This document shows, piece after piece, positions 6,591 to 36,213 of a DNA stretch of 64,000 nucleotides. A program made the position numbers and the translations under genes. The stretch covers positions 6,612 through 70,611 of the forward strand of contig DATHJY010000005.1 in assembly GCA_035489575.1 (NCBI GenBank), given 5' to 3'. How positions within the stretch are numbered: position 1 is the first letter of the stretch; each line of letters begins with the position of its first letter. The notes under the pieces were generated by a model, which made no database searches, had not been told where the DNA came from, and worked only from the letters and a program-made list of their open reading frames with translations. Source of the DNA: Verrucomicrobiia bacterium. Its GTDB lineage: Bacteria; Patescibacteriota; Saccharimonadia; Saccharimonadales; JAGQNK01.

Positions 6591-6711
6591 GTTTTTCTCC
6601 GAAAGTTAAGTGTCAGTAAAACGGCTGAAACGGGTCAGATGCCCCTGCTCGCCTAGCAGTGGCAGACCCGCAAATTTGTATCAGTGTTTACTCGTAACAC
6701 AATCATTTGGC

Positions 6712-7782
6712 TTATTTTACCACCTCTGGCGGTTCTTCGGTAGGGGCTTCTGGTTCTTCTTGGGGCCTTTCGGGTTCATTGTTTTGGGTATGTTCTTTTT
6801 TGGCAGCCCGGGCAGCAACGGCTCGCATGTCGTCGTATCGGTCGAATTCATCAATAATAGGCTTGCCTATGGCCCGTTCCAGTATGTCCTCTATGGTGAT
6901 AATACCTACAAACTCTTCAAAACTATTTACCACAATGAATAAGTGCCGTTTGGTTTTTAGTACAGCCTGCAGGGCGTCAGTGAGCGGTTGTTCTTCGTGC
7001 ACATACATAACTTCTGCGTTCATATATTTTTCTATGTGTCCGCCGGACTTGGCCCGGATCAGGTCGCGCAAATACAAAATGCCAACAATGGTATCTTTTT
7101 TGTCAGCGTAGACCGGGAACCGCGAAAAACCACTGTCGTGGAGCTCGCTCATCAGCACCGTACCAACGGCTTCGGTGGCAGCTATCATTTTTACAGCCCG
7201 GCGCGGCACCATGGCCTGCACAACACTCACGTCACCGAATGTCAGAGCGTGCAGTGCAATCTCTAGCTCAGTTTTCTCGACCCGGTTGTCGGGCTGGGCT
7301 TGCTGATACTGCAACAGCTCTATGATGTCATTGCGATCATATAGTCCGGTATGAATAGTGACCGGCCAGTGACGCCCAAAAAAACCCGACAAGCCGTCGA
7401 TAACAGGATGCAGATAACTGAGCAACCAAGCCAGTGCCGGCGCAAGTTTGCTAGCTGTCCAGGCGCTCAGCTTGGTAACGTTGCGGGCTGGCAGCCAGAC
7501 AAATCCCGCCCAAATAACAAAAGCACTAACTATCACCGCAAACCAAGTTGGCGTACTGCGCGCTACCAGCACAAAGAACAATGCGTTGGTCACCCCGACA
7601 ATAATCCACAGCACCGTGGTCAAGCTATGCCCATATGCCACTGCTTTATAGAGTGTCTTGGCTAGTTCGTCGCCTTCGCGTGCCCGCTTGCGCAGCTCGC
7701 GCTCTGGGACATGCCGATAGACCTTGAGCAGGCTAATAGAAGAAAGCGCCAGCAAAGCGGACACTAAAAGCACGATCATCAT
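6712..7782 (-). CDS. DUF21 + tandem CBS domain membrane protein (CNNM/CorB-type putative divalent-cation transporter)
   Basis: About 4 N-terminal TM helices, then a CBS pair (e.g. HLFIVVNSFEEFVGIITIEDILERAIG). Acidic Pro/Glu tail. No CorC_HlyC domain seen. Confidence 0.8.
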   Translation of the reverse strand: MMIVLLVSALLALSSISLLKVYRHVPERELRKRAREGDELAKTLYKAVAYGHSLTTVLWIIVGVTNALFFVLVARSTPTWFAVIVSAFVIWAGFVWLPARNVTKLSAWTASKLAPALAWLLSYLHPVIDGLSGFFGRHWPVTIHTGLYDRNDIIELLQYQQAQPDNRVEKTELEIALHALTFGDVSVVQAMVPRRAVKMIAATEAVGTVLMSELHDSGFSRFPVYADKKDTIVGILYLRDLIRAKSGGHIEKYMNAEVMYVHEEQPLTDALQAVLKTKRHLFIVVNSFEEFVGIITIEDILERAIGKPIIDEFDRYDDMRAVAARAAKKEHTQNNEPERPQEEPEAPTEEPPEVVK

Positions 7783-7984
7783 GAACTCATTTTACATCTC
7801 AAGTCTGTTAAGCAAAGCCTATTCTGATAAGTACGATTTGTCAGTTCTTGTACGAAGGCGTACCCGTAGGTACGCCGACAAGCAAGACTGGCAAAGCGCA
7901 CACACCCCACAAAACAGATTTTGTGGGGACCTTGTTGTGCTATCAGAATGGCTTGAGGCTGGAGTGGAGATGTAAAATAAGTTC
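7783..7984 (-). ncRNA. candidate structured cis-regulatory 5' leader RNA, copy A
   Basis: Paralogue of 13619-13781. 18-bp closing helix 7783-7800/7967-7984. P2 at 7817-7826/7944-7952. UACG-tetraloop hairpin 7857-7876. Hairpin with conserved AACUGACA loop 7831-7854. Extra 10-bp hairpin 7905-7928. Compensatory changes and minus-strand-only G.U pairs. Confidence 0.6.
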
Positions 7985-8048
7985 GCGCTCAATAGTAACA
8001 GACATGGACCCCATGATAATATGTACATACCAATTAAGGGGATATTTC

Positions 8049-8728: not shown

Positions 8729-8766
8729 AAAACCGGCTCTTTGTGGCCGGTTTTAGTTTTTTGTTT
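8729..8766 (+). terminator. rho-independent terminator after the DsbA-like gene
   Basis: AAAACCGGC / GCCGGTTTT stem (8729-8737 / 8746-8754) followed by a T-rich run. Confidence 0.7.
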
Positions 8767-9031
8767 TTGGTCCTAATGGGCTAGTAGGTTATAAATTGCT
8801 GCCATTTAGGACGCTTCACTTTTACTTGCACTCTCATACCTCGTGAAGACATTAGTTTTATTTTTACAGGCAAAGCCTGACTACTCCCTTTTTTCTCCTC
8901 ACACCTCATGGAACACACCTAGTACCCTCTATTTTTTTGTAATGTTTTTGTCTTCGACGCGTCCTCAAACTGAACGCTAGAAGTAATTCAATAATACATA
9001 AGCATGATGTGGCCGTCAATGCCGCTTTTGG

Positions 9032-12195: not shown

Positions 12196-13626
12196 TTAGG
12201 CCGCAAGTGGCATAGGCTCGGGCTCGACTATCTTTGGTTTGATGAGTTCTATCGTTGCAGGCGCCTTGGGCTTGGGCCGGGTTGTCAGCTTGGTAGGATC
12301 CTGGCCTTTGTCGAATTTGGCCTGACACTTGCGACAGACGCTACAGGGCCCAACTTCGGTTTGGCCTGGGCGAGTTGCACAGCTCATCACGCGGCAAATG
12401 CCTGCCTTCCACCCCCAAAGTTCCTTGGTGTTTTTCAAGTTGTTTGCCATGCTGTCCAGACCCAAGCCCAGTTCGGCCTCTTCTTCGTCGCTCAGTGATG
12501 CTCCACATATCACTACTACTTCTTCATGCTGACGGGCATCACTGATAATTCGCTGCGCCCGATCAAAGTCCCCGGTCAAAACTGCGTCTGATGCCCGCTG
12601 ATAGTACGTGGCCGCCTTTTGCCCGAAACAGTCAGCGGCATATTCGGGCGCCATGGTACAAATGGCCCGCAAGGTGTGCAGGATTTTCTTGCCATACTGG
12701 CTATCGCGCTGGCGCTGTTCTATAAGGCCTTGGGCCACCAGTGCGTCCAACTTCTCTTCGTACGCAGCTATTCCGTCCAGGAGCTTCTCGGCCTGCTTTT
12801 CACGCGCCATAGATTCTTGGCGCACCTGGTCGTAGTTAACATGCAACGGGTTGGCACCAATAATTTCGCCGTAGCGAATGTTGGGGCCAGCGTGTTGGTC
12901 CAGTCGCTTTTGGATATCAACCACGCCGTTGGTGTAATCCTGGACGCTATATAAGAAAGGTGTTGCTAGCGCTGTGACGTCCGCTGTTTCCCGATGCATG
13001 GGCGTAATCCCCGCAGCCTTCAAGAATCCAAAAGTACTGCGCCAGGTACCATTACTGCGGCTCATCTGTTCGATGATCCGCGTATAAGTACCGTCTGGGT
13101 GAGCCACTAGGTGAGTCGAGCGCACCATGCCTTTTTTGTTATCTGGTCGGTAGCCCAAGTTGCGGGCACTTTTTTCCGGCATGTCCTCTGGGAAATCACT
13201 GGCCAGGGCTACTGCAGTCGATTCTGGCAGTTCGTCTGCAACAATAGCTTTTTGGACCGCCTGGATGGTCAGCTCTTCGCATATCTCCGGAAAACGACGT
13301 CGTTTTTCGGCCTCTGGCAGACGATCGCTCCAGCCTCGTAGCAACCGAGACAGTACTTGGGCATTGATCTCTTCGAATGTTCCATGGATTTCTATACGGG
13401 ACAGGTGACCGGATTTGGTCAGACCCTCCCACAGGGCTGTGCGGGCATTGTCACGACGCTCTTGCTGAGCTACCTCGACATCGTTCAGGGATTCGCGGTT
13501 AGCAATAAGACCCCAGGCCTGTGCCTCTATGGCATCACGATCCACGAACTCAGCAGCATCACAGATACCTGGATGCTCTGGCCCTCGTGGCCGTTCCCCC
13601 GAAAAATCCCCCTCCATTGAACTCAT
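12196..13626 (-). CDS. hypothetical cytoplasmic protein (476 aa) with a C-terminal Cys cluster; no family recognised
   Basis: Long ORF. C-terminal cluster is ICRVMSCATRPGQTEVGPCSVCRKCQ. Start taken as ATG 13626, with GAGGTG 4 nt upstream. An in-frame ATG at 13617 is also possible. The track start at 13692 would run through the leader RNA. Confidence 0.7.
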   Translation of the reverse strand: MSSMEGDFSGERPRGPEHPGICDAAEFVDRDAIEAQAWGLIANRESLNDVEVAQQERRDNARTALWEGLTKSGHLSRIEIHGTFEEINAQVLSRLLRGWSDRLPEAEKRRRFPEICEELTIQAVQKAIVADELPESTAVALASDFPEDMPEKSARNLGYRPDNKKGMVRSTHLVAHPDGTYTRIIEQMSRSNGTWRSTFGFLKAAGITPMHRETADVTALATPFLYSVQDYTNGVVDIQKRLDQHAGPNIRYGEIIGANPLHVNYDQVRQESMAREKQAEKLLDGIAAYEEKLDALVAQGLIEQRQRDSQYGKKILHTLRAICTMAPEYAADCFGQKAATYYQRASDAVLTGDFDRAQRIISDARQHEEVVVICGASLSDEEEAELGLGLDSMANNLKNTKELWGWKAGICRVMSCATRPGQTEVGPCSVCRKCQAKFDKGQDPTKLTTRPKPKAPATIELIKPKIVEPEPMPLAA

Positions 13627-13781
13627 TTCACACCTCACGTCTGTTAAGTGAAAGCCGTTCTGGCGAGTACAGTATGTCAGTTCTCGCGACAAAGCGTACC
13701 CGTAGGTACACTGCGAAGCGAAACTGCCATAGTGTGCCGTCAGAACGGCTTGAGGCTGGAGGGGAGATGTGAAATGAGTTC
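13619..13781 (-). ncRNA. candidate structured cis-regulatory 5' leader RNA, copy B
   Basis: Same fold as copy A. P1 at 13619-13636/13764-13781. P2 at 13654-13662/13741-13749. UACG hairpin 13693-13712. AACUGACA-loop hairpin 13663-13687. The P1 3' arm contains the SD-like GAGGUG and AUG 13626. Confidence 0.6.
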
Positions 13782-13791
13782 ATAAAAAACC

Positions 13792-14109
13792 CTACTTTTT
13801 TCTTTGGTCTCGAAAAGCAGGGTATGATGGTCCGTTTGTGACGCTCCTGCTCGAGAGACTTAATCTACCGTGTCTGGCTTGGCGCATTCCTTTGAGGAGA
13901 GGCACCTTACAGTTGCGGCACAGCTCAGGATTCTCACCTGATTCCGGCATATTTTCACACATCACGCACCAGCCAGCTTGCTCCTGAGCAGAGCCCAGGA
14001 CCCTGCTGTCTTCTTGGCACCCAGCACATTTTTTCTCTGCGATGCTCCCGCACCGTACTAAAGTACGGCTTGGTCCACTTCTCGAGAATAAAATGCACTG
14101 AGCACTCAA
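13792..14109 (-). CDS. questionable Cys-rich ORF (three CxxC pairs); no ATG start
   Basis: Cysteine pairs CAGC, CVMC and CRNC spaced like a double zinc ribbon. However, the ORF opens on TTG and ends 10 nt before leader copy B. Confidence 0.3.
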   Translation of the reverse strand: MSAQCILFSRSGPSRTLVRCGSIAEKKCAGCQEDSRVLGSAQEQAGWCVMCENMPESGENPELCRNCKVPLLKGMRQARHGRLSLSSRSVTNGPSYPAFRDQRKK

Positions 14110-14241
14110 GTGCGAAATGCGTGTTTGTTAAACCTGAAGTGTTTTGCTGTTACTTCTACTAGTAGTATAGCTTATCGCGCTCACGCTATATGTAGTATTT
14201 TTGCCTGCAACTTGCCCTCCGTGCATAGTGCTACGCCAAGA

Positions 14242-32087: not shown

Positions 32088-32696
32088 ATGTTTGTGGTAT
32101 ACTACGTAATGAATAGGACAAAACAAATAATGCAGCAACCCAAGCGAATACGGTTCACCAAAAAATCACTTATCATCGGCGCCGTTCTAGCCCTTGTTAT
32201 CGCCGGTGGCGGAGTATTTGCTTATCAACAGACGCGTCCAGATAACCCCCGCAAGGTTTCCGAAAATCCAGAGAGCACTGCCCAGAATGAAGACGAGATC
32301 AACCTAGACCCAGCTACCGATGAAGAAAAGAAAGAAACCGACCAACACAAAGACGAGCTAGTAAAACAGAACGAACAGCCCCAACCAGGCGGCGGCAACA
32401 AGTCTGTCACCCCCAGTATCGTAGACGCTTCACAGTACGGCCAACAAGTCGAAGTCCGCGCCCTAGTATCTGGCGTATACGAAGAAGGCGGCACCTGCAA
32501 AGCAACCTTTACCAAAAGCGGCCAAACGGTTAGCAAACAATCTGCCGGTTTTAAAGACGCCACCACTACCACCTGCACACCCATGACCATCCCGCGCGCA
32601 GAGTTCCCAAGCGCTGGTGACTGGAGCGTAACCGTAACTTACACCTCTGGCAGCTCCACGGGCACTTCGGCTAGCAAAACTGTGAGGATCCAGTAG
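32088..32696 (+). CDS. hypothetical membrane-anchored secreted protein
   Basis: TM helix LIIGAVLALVIAGGGVFAY. Charged linker, then a beta-rich C-terminus. Start could be ATG 32109. TTGAAC-N17-TATAGT promoter-like boxes lie upstream. Confidence 0.55.
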   Translation: MFVVYYVMNRTKQIMQQPKRIRFTKKSLIIGAVLALVIAGGGVFAYQQTRPDNPRKVSENPESTAQNEDEINLDPATDEEKKETDQHKDELVKQNEQPQPGGGNKSVTPSIVDASQYGQQVEVRALVSGVYEEGGTCKATFTKSGQTVSKQSAGFKDATTTTCTPMTIPRAEFPSAGDWSVTVTYTSGSSTGTSASKTVRIQ

Positions 32697-34444
32697 TGCG
32701 TCGGCAAGCGTTTAGATTCGCGCTTGCCTTGTTGCTTCCTCTATTTATTGTCGCTCCGTATTTTGGCAGCCTGTCTCCCCAGAAGGCCTCGGCACTTGCC
32801 GGCCACGAGTTTCAGTCTGGGCGCATCATAGACGATGGTGTGTTCTTTAACGGCAACGCTCTCTCCCAGCAACAGATCCAAGAATTTATGAATGCCAAGG
32901 TGTCCACCTGTGACACCTGGGGTAGCCAGCCGCGTGGTGGTACCACCCGGGCCGCCCATGGTTCGGCCAACGGAGCACCGCCTCCTTATATATGCCTCAA
33001 GGAATACAGCATGTCTACGCCGTTCAAACCTGCAGATGGTCTGTGCAACGGCCACAACCCGGGCAACAAAGGCAGTGCTCAGATTTTGTACGAGGTCCAA
33101 CAGAGCTGTGGCGTCAGTGCCAAGGCCTTGTTGGTTCTCTTGCAAAAAGAGCAGTCCCTGGTCACCGACGATTGGCCGTGGCCCATCCAGTACCGCAGTG
33201 CCACCGGCTATGGCTGCCCAGATAGCGCTCCTTGTGATTCAGAATATTATGGCTTCTTTAACCAGGTCTATAACGCCGCTCGGCAGTTTAGGCGTTATGC
33301 CCGCGATGCCAGCATGTTCAACTATCGTCGTGACCGCAACAACTTTATCCAGTACAACCCCAACGGCGGTTGTGGCGGTGGCAATGTCTACATACAGAAC
33401 AGTGCAACAGCCGGACTGTACAACTACACACCCTACCAACCCAACTCCGCCGCCTTGAATAACCTATATGGCACTGGCGACGGCTGTAGCGCCTACGGCA
33501 ATCGCAACTTTTGGCGCATGTACAACGACTGGTTTGGTAATACCTTTGGCTTTCCGTTTGCCGCTTCATTCAGGGGTGGTAGTCCACCCGTTGTCGTCAA
33601 ACACGGGCAAAATGCCTCTATGTCCTTTGACTTCCAGAATACTGGGTCGCAGTTCTGGAAAGACGATGCCAGTGCCCTGCCTTATTACCCACGCACTCGA
33701 CTGATGGGAACCTGGCCAATCAACCGCGGCAGCGCCTTTAGCAATGCAACATGGCCAAATCCCAGCCGGCCAGTATCAGTCTTTACGGCTGTCTACGAAA
33801 ACGACGGAACTACTCCGGCTGCCGACCAACACACGGTGTGGCCGGGACAGGTCGGACGCTTCCAGTTCGCCGTTTCCTACCCGGGCTACGGCATCGGTGG
33901 TGGCATTCACCAAGAACACTTCGAACTGGTCCAAGACGGCGCATCTAATTTCTGGGTACCTGGTGGCTATGCCTGGCAGTCAATTGTAACGGCCGAACCA
34001 TTTGCTGCTGGCTTCCGCGGCGTCAGCCCCGAGCCAACCGTACGCCCCGGTATCAACGACACCATGTATTTTGACTTCCAAAACCTCGGGTCGCAGTTCT
34101 GGAAGGACGATGCCAGCGCATTATCCTACTATCCTCGCACTCGACTGATGGGCGCTTGGCCTATCAACCGTAATAGCGCCTTTGTGCATAGTTCGTGGCT
34201 ATCTGCCAGCCGACCAGTAAATGTCTTTAACAAAGTCTACGAAGCCGACGGAGTCACCCTGGCTGCCGACCAACACACTGTATGGCCGGGACAGGTCGGA
34301 CGCTTCCTGATGACCGTACAGCACCCCACCAACGGCACGCCTGTTGGCAAGTACAAAGAACACTTTGAACTAGTTCAAGACGGCGTACCCAACTTCTGGG
34401 TACCTGGTGGCTATGCCTGGCAAGCCGTCAACATCGCCCCTTAG
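32696..34444 (+). CDS. secreted protein with a tandemly duplicated about 149-aa beta-sandwich (NBR1/Ig-like?) C-terminal domain
   Basis: Signal peptide ALALLLPLFIVAPYFGS. Repeats at 33551-33997 and 33998-34441 share the blocks FDFQN.GSQFWKDDASAL.YYPRTRLMG.WPINR and AADQHTVWPGQVGRF and HFELVQDG..NFWVPGGYAWQ. Confidence 0.7.
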   Translation: MRRQAFRFALALLLPLFIVAPYFGSLSPQKASALAGHEFQSGRIIDDGVFFNGNALSQQQIQEFMNAKVSTCDTWGSQPRGGTTRAAHGSANGAPPPYICLKEYSMSTPFKPADGLCNGHNPGNKGSAQILYEVQQSCGVSAKALLVLLQKEQSLVTDDWPWPIQYRSATGYGCPDSAPCDSEYYGFFNQVYNAARQFRRYARDASMFNYRRDRNNFIQYNPNGGCGGGNVYIQNSATAGLYNYTPYQPNSAALNNLYGTGDGCSAYGNRNFWRMYNDWFGNTFGFPFAASFRGGSPPVVVKHGQNASMSFDFQNTGSQFWKDDASALPYYPRTRLMGTWPINRGSAFSNATWPNPSRPVSVFTAVYENDGTTPAADQHTVWPGQVGRFQFAVSYPGYGIGGGIHQEHFELVQDGASNFWVPGGYAWQSIVTAEPFAAGFRGVSPEPTVRPGINDTMYFDFQNLGSQFWKDDASALSYYPRTRLMGAWPINRNSAFVHSSWLSASRPVNVFNKVYEADGVTLAADQHTVWPGQVGRFLMTVQHPTNGTPVGKYKEHFELVQDGVPNFWVPGGYAWQAVNIAP

Positions 34445-34447
34445 TGC

Positions 34448-34603
34448 CCTACCCCAGATCTCCCTTTCGAGCCCAAAATTGATCCATTTTGGATGACAAT
34501 CCGTTCTGGCTTCTGTGGCGTAACCATAGTTACGGCTCAGAAGTTAGGGCGGATTGGCGCCGGAATGGGCGGTTTTGGGACGGAATTGGGGATCTGGGGT
34601 AGG
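34448..34603. repeat. long-range inverted repeat enclosing nested hairpins, between convergent genes
   Basis: CCTACCCCAGATC (34448-34460) pairs with GATCTGGGGTAGG (34591-34603). Inner hairpins are CCAAAAT..ATTTTGG and CGTAAC-CATA-GTTACG, the latter flanked by CTTCTG/CAGAAG. The 3' half is G-tract rich. Confidence 0.6.
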
Positions 34604-34617
34604 CTCTTAGATAAGTT

Positions 34618-36012: not shown

Positions 36013-36072
36013 AACGACTGGCTTACCCTCCGTGCTACCACCCTGAGTTAAATTGGTGTTGTCTTGCCAAAG

Positions 36073-36190
36073 TATAGCACTCCCAAAACAAAACCTGTCT
36101 TTTTCTGGTGATGGATCAGTGAGCCAAAAAGCTGCTTTTGGGCCGCTGAGGCCCGGCAGAAATGGCGAGTTTTGTTTTGGGAGTGCTATA
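36073..36190. repeat. perfect 22-bp inverted repeat with a 74-nt spacer
   Basis: TATAGCACTCCCAAAACAAAAC (36073-36094) and GTTTTGTTTTGGGAGTGCTATA (36169-36190). The spacer holds the CCAAAA..TTTTGG and GGGCC..GGCCC hairpins. Each arm carries an outward-facing TGCTATA extended -10-like box. Confidence 0.8.
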
Positions 36191-36213
36191 TATAGGCAAT
36201 GACGGTCTTTCGT

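What the first reader, a model, noticed from the sequence alone, without database searches (positions are those of the whole stretch)
13619..13781. Copy B of the leader: the closing helix buries the SD and AUG, with a conserved start-stop dicodon and a uORF/in-frame switch between copies
In copy B the 3' arm of the 18-bp P1 helix (minus-strand 13636-13619, GAGGUGUGAAAUGAGUUC) contains an SD-like GAGGUG and the AUG at 13626-13624 that opens the 476-aa ORF. Forming P1 would therefore occlude translation initiation.

In copy A the homologous AUG (7790-7788) opens a 3-codon uORF, AUG AGU UCA UGA. Its stop overlaps the main start (AUGA, 7782-7779). In copy B a single extra A puts the same AUG in frame with the main ORF (MSSMEG...).

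Just upstream in the same arm, copy A reads AUG-UAA (7797-7792) and copy B reads GUG-UGA (13633-13628). Both are a start codon followed directly by a stop codon, even though the nucleotides themselves covary with the 5' arm.

An 18-bp P1 is unusually long for a ligand-gated riboswitch and is long enough to be an RNase III substrate. Processing, or a protein- or temperature-dependent mechanism, is equally possible.

Copy B begins only 10 nt after the stop of the questionable Cys-rich ORF 13792..14109. It is therefore either intercistronic or the true 5' UTR.
Basis: partly seen in the sequence, partly recalled or inferred. Interest (0 to 1): 0.65.

Follow-up and report, generated by a model that had tools for sequence, protein, structure and literature searches.

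The report
Mobile hairpin repeat inside riboswitch leader
The supposed "leader" is one copy of a 163-base mobile palindromic repeat that landed between a vitamin-B12 riboswitch and the start codon of a Saccharibacteria gene. Its long hairpin is real and would cover the ribosome-binding region, but the start-stop and mini-ORF details are repeat sequence shared by descent and are not conserved in the independent homologues.

Summary
That includes the 18-bp helix (19 bp with its flanks), GAGGUG plus AUG 13626 in the 3' arm, GUG-UGA / AUG-UAA, and the AUGA uORF in copy A. The fold is far beyond chance (z about -10; 27 of 63 pairs compensated across 4 homologues).

The element is not a dedicated leader:
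- A close relative (88% identical protein) has the same cobalamin riboswitch and terminator running straight into ATG-GAG-GGG. Copy B is therefore a 163-nt insertion, and the ancestral start is AUG 13617.
- The "Cys-rich ORF" is the riboswitch, which itself carries another 169-nt hairpin insertion.
- Homologues in two other Saccharibacteria lie beside a convergent valS and between a terminator and the thrS leader. Neither has the start-stop, and only one has an AUG in the arm.
- Related copies sit in a 3' UTR with an exact CTAAG target duplication, and in frame inside an ABC ATPase gene, where an empty site exists in the relative.

Best reading: a MITE/RPE-like palindromic repeat family, new for this phylum. 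As a side effect its hairpin should occlude translation initiation or offer an RNase III site.

Open points: copy A is conserved between genomes well above synonymous sites, and related copies fold on one strand only.

The parts
13619..13781 (-). Copy B: 163-nt rod-forming palindromic repeat, 19-bp closing helix if 13618/13782 are included. It is an insertion relative to the orthologous locus L144.
   Evidence: (183 bits to the family model).
13764..13781 (-). 5' arm of P1 (terminal inverted repeat), GAACUCAUUUCACAUCUC.
13619..13636 (-). 3' arm of P1, GAGGUGUGAAAUGAGUUC. It contains the SD-like GAGGUG, GUG-UGA (13633-13628) and AUG 13626-13624.
13624..13626 (-). AUG inside the inserted DNA, in frame with the ORF. 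It is the annotated start of the 476-aa product (MSSMEG...).
   Evidence: P0001, 476 aa, identical.
13615..13617 (-). Ancestral start codon (MEGDFSG...), 1 nt after the element.
   Evidence: (P0002 and P0003 start MEG).
12196..13617 (-). Conserved Saccharibacteria hypothetical protein with no Pfam domain and a C-terminal Cys-rich segment (...CRVMSC...CSVCRKC...).
13785..13825 (-). Intrinsic terminator, the expression platform of the riboswitch: CCCUGCUUUU...AAAAGUAGGG followed by U6. It is nearly identical in L144.
13870..13945 (-). Core of the cobalamin riboswitch aptamer (RF00174). The 5' strand of the aptamer lies beyond the 169-nt insertion, at about 14124-14145.
   Evidence: 33.6 bits, gathering score 31.5; full-length match in L144.
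13955..14123 (-). A second, unrelated rod-like insertion (169 nt) at the P2 position of the riboswitch. It is absent from L144. It folds only on the transcribed strand (-85 vs -49.5 kcal/mol; 11 G.U vs 1).
7783..7984 (-). Copy A: the same family, inserted between the -10-like TACTAT and the start codon of a CNNM/CBS (CorC-like) gene. It is absent in L146 and orthologously present in L151.
7902..7940 (-). 39-nt nested hairpin insertion inside copy A, absent from the orthologous copy in L151.
34445..34605 (+). Related subfamily copy ('C3') between convergent genes. It is flanked by exact CTAAG repeats (34606-34610 and 34440-34444 on the - strand). The stop codon of the + strand gene lies in the duplication. 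It folds much better on the + strand (-106 vs -74 kcal/mol).
   Evidence: (41 bits).
36064..36199 (.). Another long hairpin with a 22-bp perfect stem between co-directional genes. Its family relation is weak (24 bits).

Best explanation
Copy B is a member of a family of about 163-nt non-coding palindromic repeats that are mobile or have been mobile (MITE / RPE / ERIC-like) in Saccharibacteria. Each copy is an imperfect whole-length palindrome. It has 18-20-bp terminal inverted repeats (the 'P1'), a conserved asymmetric internal loop (CUCCAGCCUCAAGCC / GGCUUU-N1-2-CUUAACAGAC) and a conserved apical hairpin.

In this strain one copy was inserted between the U-tract of a cobalamin-riboswitch terminator and the original start codon (AUG 13617) of a conserved hypothetical gene. 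Another copy lies between the promoter and the start codon of a CNNM/CBS gene.

Shown:
- The fold and its covariation.
- The presence/absence polymorphism.
- The unrelated genomic contexts of homologues.
- Target duplication and an in-ORF copy for the sister subfamily.
- The riboswitch upstream.

Inferred:
- When the riboswitch lets transcription read through, the element is part of the 5' UTR. It folds into a rod of -79 kcal/mol whose 3' arm holds the only SD-like sequence and AUG 13626 and ends 1 nt before AUG 13617.
- It should therefore lower translation initiation unless the duplex is cut (RNase III, as for Correia elements) or melted.
- The SD-like motif, AUG, start-stop and uORF are sequence of the terminal repeat. 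At most they have been co-opted secondarily.
For: Fold: z about -10.

Covariation: 27 of 63 pairs doubly changed in 4 sequences, 94.4% paired, controls far lower.

No Rfam family matches the element.

Empty sites:
- L144 has the riboswitch and terminator running directly into the ATG.
- L146 has TACTAT-tgattcat-ATG.

Contexts elsewhere:
- L081 lies next to the 3' end of a convergent valS.
- L082 lies between a terminator and the thrS promoter/leader.

Further copies and relatives:
- In the window, at 34445-34605 and 36064-36199.
- Just outside the window, inside an ABC ATPase ORF.
- All 119 listed homologues of that ATPase lack the 57-aa tail.
- The relative has the empty site ggatgCTAAGaaaaag, against CCAAG[element]CTAAG in this strain.
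- C3 is flanked by exact CTAAG/CTAAG.

Other points:
- Copy B is only 77-79% identical to either orthologous copy A, although it is absent from the sister genome. It therefore derives from another lineage of the family.
- An assembly of the same strain breaks inside copy A.
- No conserved ORF exists on either strand.
- MITE properties and the Correia/RNase III and ERIC precedents are from PMC10969869 and PMC2649163.
Against: - No target-site duplication can be shown for copy B itself (flanks TTATG / CAATG) or for copy A.
- No transposase, integrase or reverse transcriptase is encoded in the 64-kb window, and no parent IS is known.
- Only 5 family copies were found in 4 genomes. Exact-pattern scans of metagenome and viral collections gave only chance hits.
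- Orthologous copies A are 92% identical (the 3' 68 nt are 100% identical), while codon position 3 of the adjacent gene is 64% identical. All 12 substitutions are transitions and one pair is doubly compensated. That looks like purifying selection in situ, which is not expected for inert junk.
- The loops are invariant in 4 of 5 copies while the stems covary.
- The sister subfamily folds on one strand only (16 G.U vs 0). A double-stranded cut-and-paste element does not need that.
Confidence: 0.72

Rival explanations
1. A dedicated (or domesticated) cis-regulatory leader RNA. The rod would be a translational gate that hides the SD and AUG and opens on a signal (protein, RNase III processing, temperature). 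It would be present upstream of two genes because both need the same control.
For: - Both window copies are in the sense orientation and end 0-1 nt before a start codon.
- The loops are invariant while the stems covary.
- The orthologous copy A is conserved far above synonymous sites and evolves only by transitions and compensation.
- A purine-rich GAGG/GGGA motif opens the 3' arm in all copies.
Against: - It is absent from the orthologous site of the closest relative for copy B and from L146 for copy A.
- L081 and L082 have no gene start abutting or inside the arm that the helix could occlude.
- Sister copies lie in a 3' UTR and inside an ORF.
- The start-stop and uORF are not conserved.
- No alternative fold is apparent; one rod dominates the ensemble.
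- The antisense strand folds better in every copy.
- The loop is altered in the conserved orthologue L151.
Confidence: 0.15
2. The functional molecule is an RNA (or single-stranded DNA) of the opposite strand. It would be either a small RNA gene antisense to the two 5' UTRs or the single-stranded transposition or replication intermediate of the element. The mRNA-sense hairpin would be only its mirror image.
For: The opposite strand is more stable in all copies:
- Copy B: -88.9 vs -78.6 kcal/mol.
- L081: -92.6 vs -70.0.
- L082: -85.3 vs -72.3.
- C3: -106 vs -74.
- The ABC-gene copy: -110 vs -56, with 16 G.U vs 0.

Replication skew would favour G.T on the other strand, since the + strand is C-rich and dnaA lies to the right of the window.
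Against: - No promoter-like site was found on the + strand within copy B or just upstream of it in the scanned region.
- One 'native' copy lies antisense inside an operon.
- For the A/B subfamily the G.U excess is modest (22 vs 12), and much of it comes from the invariant loops, so it counts as a single event.
- A 5-bp target duplication points to double-stranded integration.
Confidence: 0.08
3. A small protein gene on the + strand overlapping the element. ORFs 7724..7975 and 13521..13772 both end ...LEAG-x-EM*, and the copies differ by exactly 39 nt, which is 13 codons.
For: The two window ORFs keep frame and share peptide stretches.
Against: L082 has an in-frame stop and L081 a frameshift in the same frame. 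The similarity is explained by nucleotide conservation.
Confidence: 0.01

Closest known systems
Correia repeat-enclosed elements (CREE/NEMIS) of Neisseria
   Same: - Element of about 100-160 bp with terminal inverted repeats and a conserved core.
- Inserted close to gene starts and co-transcribed.
- The transcript folds into a long hairpin that RNase III can cleave.
- Presence/absence differs between strains and changes expression.
(PMC2649163; PMC10969869)
   Different: - No sequence similarity.
- No TA duplication.
- No outward promoter or IHF site was detected here.
- Different phylum.
- The stems covary between copies while the internal loops stay invariant.
- RNase III cleavage was not tested.
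Rickettsia palindromic elements (RPE)
   Same: - Palindromic repeats of about 150 bp in a reduced genome.
- They insert into intergenic DNA, structural RNAs and, in frame, into protein genes (PMC10969869).
- Here a sister copy adds a 57-aa in-frame tail to an ABC ATPase, and an unrelated rod sits in a riboswitch helix.
   Different: No sequence relation. The mobilising mechanism is unknown in both. Here a 5-bp CTAAG duplication is visible for the sister subfamily.
ERIC / QMITE2-type bacterial MITEs
   Same: - Whole-length imperfect palindromes.
- Located in transcribed intergenic regions and 3' UTRs.
- Very stable predicted transcript hairpins.
- Direct repeats that fade with age.

   Different: - Low copy number (2 + 2 in about 80 kb examined).
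- Not AT-rich (GC 0.45-0.54, against 0.51 for the genome).
- One-strand-only folding in the sister subfamily.
Cobalamin riboswitch (RF00174), for the upstream 'Cys-rich ORF'
   Same: It scores above the gathering score in the window and in the orthologous locus. The core is conserved and is followed by a terminator hairpin and a U-tract.
   Different: The scores are only just above threshold (33.6 and 33.1 vs 31.5). P2 is missing in L144 and is replaced by a 169-nt rod in the window. The regulated gene has no known link to B12.

Membership tests
Prokaryotic MITE / palindromic intergenic repeat | Small (<0.5 kb) element without coding capacity | tested here: met
   The elements are 163-202 nt. 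There is no frame conserved across the family on either strand.
Prokaryotic MITE / palindromic intergenic repeat | Terminal inverted repeats | tested here: met
   Arms of 18-19 bp in copy B, 18 bp in copy A, and 15-20 bp in L081 and L082.
Prokaryotic MITE / palindromic intergenic repeat | Presence/absence polymorphism at orthologous sites (mobility) | tested here: met
   - Copy B is absent in L144.
- Copy A is absent in L146 but present in L151.
- The ABC-gene copy is absent in L151 and in 119 homologues.
Prokaryotic MITE / palindromic intergenic repeat | Target-site duplication flanking the element | tested here: inconclusive
   - Sister subfamily: exact CTAAG/CTAAG around 34445-34605, and CCAAG/CTAAG around the ABC-gene copy with CTAAG at the empty site.
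- Copy B: TTATG/CAATG, with only ATG shared.
- Copy A: none.
- L081 has CTTAG and L082 has TTAAG on the left flank only.
Prokaryotic MITE / palindromic intergenic repeat | Several copies per genome, in unrelated intergenic contexts | tested here: met
   There are 2 A/B-type and 2 C3-type copies in about 80 kb of this genome. Contexts are 5' UTR, 3' UTR, the gap between a terminator and a promoter, and inside an ORF.
Prokaryotic MITE / palindromic intergenic repeat | Parent IS / transposase with matching ends | tested here: inconclusive
   Pfam found no transposase, integrase or RT among 37 window ORFs. Only about 80 kb of the genome was seen.
Prokaryotic MITE / palindromic intergenic repeat | Transcript forms a very stable stem-loop | tested here: met
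   MFE of -78.6 to -110 kcal/mol, z from -10 to -14.
Ligand-gated riboswitch / dedicated leader | Conserved position upstream of a consistent gene set | tested here: not met
   It is absent at the orthologous sites. The homologues lie beside a convergent valS and ahead of the thrS promoter and leader, about 260 nt upstream of the thrS ATG, so no gene start abuts or lies inside the arm.
Ligand-gated riboswitch / dedicated leader | Alternative (on/off) structures or an expression platform | tested here: not met
   A single rod dominates the MFE and the centroid, with and without flanks. No competing helix was found.
Ligand-gated riboswitch / dedicated leader | Match to a described RNA family | tested here: not met
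   Rfam 15, both strands, E up to 10: nothing for either copy.
Start-stop / uORF translational control | Start-stop dicodon or uORF conserved in homologues | tested here: not met
   L081 reads GGU-AUG-AAU and L082 reads AUA-UAA. L082 has no AUG in the arm.
RNase III-processed hairpin (Correia-like) | Cleavage of the duplex by RNase III | not testable with these tools
   A perfect duplex of 18-19 bp is long enough in principle. No RNA data are available.
Cobalamin riboswitch RF00174 (upstream element) | Covariance-model score at or above the gathering score | tested here: met
   33.6 bits in the window and 33.1 bits in L144, against a gathering score of 31.5.
Small protein gene on the + strand | Open reading frame kept in homologues | tested here: not met
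   In-frame stop in L082 and frameshift in L081.

The most novel reading that the evidence does not exclude
The rods are not ordinary cut-and-paste MITEs. They would be a superfamily of strand-specific structured nucleic acids that spread through Saccharibacteria genomes via a single-stranded (RNA or ssDNA) phase.

Evidence that does not exclude this:
- One strand carries up to 16 G.U pairs and the other none.
- The loops are invariant while the stems covary.

Some copies would have been domesticated as 5'-UTR modules that gate translation or RNase III processing. Copy A is held at 92-100% identity between genomes whose synonymous sites are only 64% identical. Copy B would then be a fresh recruitment of such a module downstream of a B12 riboswitch.
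Probability: 0.2. Interest if true: 0.7.

Novelty: new member of a known kind. Interest (0 to 1): 0.4.

Why it matters
- It corrects three annotations. A spurious 105-aa ORF is really a cobalamin riboswitch. A start codon was called inside inserted DNA. An ABC ATPase has a tail made of repeat sequence.
- It shows that streamlined Saccharibacteria genomes carry several families of rod-forming palindromic insertions. They sit in UTRs, inside a riboswitch helix and inside a gene. The paper library searched holds no description of these.
- Such insertions can mimic leaders or riboswitches in motif scans because they covary strongly.
- The pair of strains with and without copy B is a natural experiment on what a 163-nt hairpin placed against a start codon does to a riboswitch-controlled gene.

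Tried and rejected
- **Known RNA family:** Rfam at the gathering score and at E up to 10, on both strands, gave nothing for the element. 6S-like, SRP-like and Y-RNA-like ideas were dropped for that reason and because the element is missing from close relatives.
- **Small protein on the + strand:** rejected, because of a stop and a frameshift in the homologues.
- **Integron attC site:** the ends do not fit RYYYAAC / GTTRRRY on direct reading.
- **Intrinsic terminator on either strand:** there is no U-tract after the rod.
- **Outward promoter in the element (Correia-like):** only a weak 9/12 match in copy A and none in copy B.
- **Replication- or transcription-linked mutation bias as the cause of the strand asymmetry:** the - strand is the G-rich leading strand and the coding strand of both genes, so the bias would favour the wrong strand. 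The riboswitch insert 200 nt away has the opposite polarity.
- **More family members:**
  - The viral scan gave 79 chance hits.
  - The metagenome scan gave 61 chance hits.
  - The genome scan gave 2 true hits and 1 chance hit.
  - The model search of L144-L151 found only the orthologous copy A, the same strain's copy A again, and the ABC-gene copy in two assemblies of the strain.
- **DNA not retrievable:** the DNA of the 70-84% relatives (sample 3300078620) could not be fetched.
- **51-codon uORF:** a uORF from AUG 13783 runs through the rod to UGA 13628. It is open in copy B only, which is about what chance allows, so it was not pursued.
Full report
**1. The observation**

On the minus strand, 13781-13764 (GAACUCAUUUCACAUCUC) pairs with 13636-13619 (GAGGUGUGAAAUGAGUUC). 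That gives 18 bp with one G.U, or 19 bp counting U13782-A13618. The 3' arm contains GAGGUG, GUG-UGA (13633-13628) and AUG 13626, which is in frame with the long ORF. Copy A (7984-7783) has AUG-UAA and AUG AGU UCA UGA overlapping the main AUG 7782.

Copy B folds at -78.6 kcal/mol (z -10.3) and copy A at -90.0 (z -10.0). The rod and the upstream terminator both persist when flanks are added. The sequence facts are correct and the helix is not chance.

**2. What lies upstream**

Rfam finds a cobalamin riboswitch at 13945-13870 on the minus strand (33.6 bits, gathering score 31.5). It is followed by CCCUGCUUUU...AAAAGUAGGG plus U6 (13825-13785).

The 'Cys-rich ORF 13792..14109' is therefore a riboswitch with its terminator. 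No Rfam family matches the element itself on either strand, even at E up to 10.

**3. Homologues**

An exact-pattern scan of one genome per species found two true homologues, both in Saccharibacteria MAGs:
- L081:172-338 and L082:6253-6422 keep the loops CUCCAGCCUCAAGCC and GGCUUUCGCUUAACAGAC.
- Their P1, P2 and apical stems have different sequences that still pair.
- RNAalifold gives 63 pairs, 27 of them with compensatory changes.
- Explicit counting gives 94.4% of cells paired and 27 doubly changed pairs, against 11 +/- 2.3 in shuffles and at most 6 in slid controls.

Their contexts do not fit a leader:
- L081 abuts the 3' end of a convergent valS.
- L082 lies between a terminator U-tract and the promoter and leader of thrS.
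- The 3' arms read CGAGGGUAUGAAUCGGGCUCU and GUGGGAUAUAAAAGGGUUCU. Neither has a start-stop, and L082 has no AUG.

Viral and metagenome scans returned only chance matches.

**4. Copy B is an insertion**

The 476-aa protein has 96 homologues, all hypothetical and mostly Saccharibacteria. It has no Pfam domain.

The contig of the 88%-identical protein (L144) has the same riboswitch (33.1 bits, full-length model match) and a nearly identical terminator. It then reads '...aaaaaagcagggtttttagtATGgagggggatttttcg'. The window reads '...aaaaaagtagggttttttat[163 nt]aATGgagggggatttttcg'. The family model finds nothing in L144.

The relatives' proteins start MEGDFSG / MEGYGSG. The ancestral start is therefore AUG 13617, and AUG 13626 (the annotated start, P0001) lies in inserted DNA.

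**5. Copy A**

In L146 (78% identical protein) the divergent dsbA-CNNM spacer is 98 nt. A -10-like TACTAT sits 8 nt (tgattcat) before the ATG. In the window the 202-nt element sits exactly between TACTAT-tgagcgc and the ATG.

The closest relative (L151, the same sample as L144) does have an orthologous copy A (168 bits). It lacks the 39-nt nested hairpin 7940-7902. So copy A predates the split of the two genomes, whereas copy B is private to this one.

Copy B is only 77-79% identical to either copy A. It therefore came from another lineage of the family.

**6. A superfamily of rods**

The family model also hits two further sites in the window:
- 34447-34604 scores 41 bits. It lies between convergent genes.
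- 36069-36195 scores 24 bits. It has a 22-bp perfect stem.

Just left of the window, in assemblies of the same strain, it hits a copy inside the 3' end of an ABC ATPase ORF (L147:7843-8011). That ATPase is 378 aa, while all 119 listed homologues are 312-342 aa. The relative's empty site is 'ggatgCTAAGaaaaaggg', against 'ggatgCCAAG[element]CTAAGaaaaaggg' here.

The 34445-34605 copy is flanked by exact CTAAG repeats, and the stop codon of the upstream gene lies inside one of them.

A third, unrelated 169-nt rod (14123-13955) sits at the P2 position of the riboswitch and is absent from L144. This explains why the Rfam match in the window is partial.

No transposase, integrase or reverse transcriptase is encoded among 37 window ORFs.

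**7. Strand**

|---|---|---|
| Copy B | -88.9 | -78.6 |
| Copy A | -94.3 | -90.0 |
| L081 | -92.6 | -70.0 |
| L082 | -85.3 | -72.3 |
| C3 | -106.2 | -74.2 |
| ABC-gene copy | -110.1 | -56.0 |

- G.U pairs are 16 vs 0 for the ABC-gene copy and 11 vs 0 for C3.
- The riboswitch insert has the opposite polarity (11 vs 1).
- dnaA lies about 3.4 kb right of the window, and the + strand is C-rich throughout. Replication bias would therefore favour the other strand.

I cannot explain this for an element that makes target duplications. It points to a single-stranded phase, or to selection on one strand.

**8. Constraint**

Between the window and L151:
- Coding DNA is about 85% identical. In the CNNM gene, codon positions 1+2 are 95% identical and position 3 is 64%.
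- The orthologous copy A is 92% identical, and its 3' 68 nt are 100% identical.
- The 64-nt promoter spacer is 97% identical.
- All 12 substitutions in copy A are transitions, and one pair is doubly compensated.
- A further non-coding block (8760-8999) is 100% identical, while another spacer (6600-6659) is 72%.

Copy A is therefore constrained in situ. This may reflect co-option as part of the CNNM 5' UTR, or conversion among copies. It is the main evidence against 'inert junk'.

**9. Mechanism**

Shown: the riboswitch and terminator come first, then the rod, then the start codon.

Inferred:
- Read-through transcripts carry a rod whose 3' arm sequesters the only SD-like motif and AUG 13626 and ends 1 nt before AUG 13617. 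Initiation should be hindered unless the duplex is cleaved or melted.
- Correia elements are the precedent for RNase III cleavage at the inverted repeats, and ERIC elements for effects on mRNA stability (PMC2649163; PMC10969869).
- The start-stop and uORF are terminal-repeat sequence. They are not conserved in independent homologues.

**10. Verdict**

This is a new family of a known kind, a MITE/RPE-like palindromic repeat. I found no description of one for Saccharibacteria in the paper library.

The reading of it as a dedicated leader with a conserved start-stop device is not supported.

Noticed in passing
window 13855-14145 (-), L144:9811-9931: A cobalamin riboswitch with a terminator controls a conserved Saccharibacteria hypothetical protein (476 aa, no Pfam domain, C-terminal Cys-rich segment ...CRVMSC...CSVCRKC...). 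The gene has no known link to B12. A 49%-identical homologue locus (L145) shows no riboswitch at the gathering score.
   Followed up: partly
window 13955-14123 (-): A 169-nt rod-like insertion sits at the P2 position of the riboswitch and is absent from the orthologous L144. It folds only on the transcribed strand (-85 vs -49.5 kcal/mol; 11 G.U vs 1). Its apical hairpin CCGUACUUUAGUACGG resembles the apex of copies A and B.
   Followed up: partly
L147:7843-8011 (just left of window position 1; same strain), L151:10880-10970: A C3-type element is inserted in frame in the 3' end of an ABC ATPase gene and adds a 57-aa tail. An empty site with CTAAG exists in the closest relative. There is a 21-nt tandem duplication at the left junction. 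The antisense strand folds at -110 kcal/mol (z -13.8) with 16 G.U pairs, against -56 for the sense strand.
   Followed up: yes
window 34440-34610: A C3-type element lies between convergent genes and is flanked by exact CTAAG direct repeats. The TAG stop of ORF 32696..34444 lies inside the duplication.
   Followed up: yes
window 36064-36199: A 136-nt hairpin with a 22-bp perfect stem lies between two co-directional minus-strand genes. It is only weakly related to the family (24 bits). No target duplication was seen.
   Followed up: partly
window 7902-7940 (-): A 39-nt nested insertion (10-bp hairpin CCCCACAAAA/UUUUGUGGGG) lies inside copy A and is absent from the orthologous copy in L151. On the + strand it scores as terminator-like.
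   Followed up: partly
window 8760-8999: This non-coding block between dsbA and the iron-permease gene is 100% identical to the relative L151, while the flanking genes are 67-85% identical. It has no convincing ORF and no Rfam hit at the gathering score. It may be an unknown RNA or regulatory region.
   Followed up: no
L146:255-360 and window 7985-8048: In the element-free relative, the CNNM/CBS gene has a -10-like TACTAT 8 nt (tgattcat) before its ATG, which suggests a leaderless or near-leaderless mRNA. In the window the element would then make up the whole 5' UTR.
   Followed up: no
window 13628-13783 (-): An AUG at the left junction of copy B (13783-13781) opens a 51-codon frame that runs through the whole rod. 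It stops at UGA 13630-13628, 1 nt before AUG 13626. The frame is not open in the other family members.
   Followed up: partly
L082:6425-6685: Downstream of the L082 element there is a promoter-like TGGTACAAT, a structured leader with a terminator, and then thrS. No Rfam family (for example T-box) reached the gathering score there.
   Followed up: no
L149:12536-14751 (about 3.4 kb right of the window end): rnpA, yidC and the KH/R3H protein gene lie next to dnaA-dnaN, so the replication origin is just outside the window. The + strand GC skew is negative across the whole window.
   Followed up: partly
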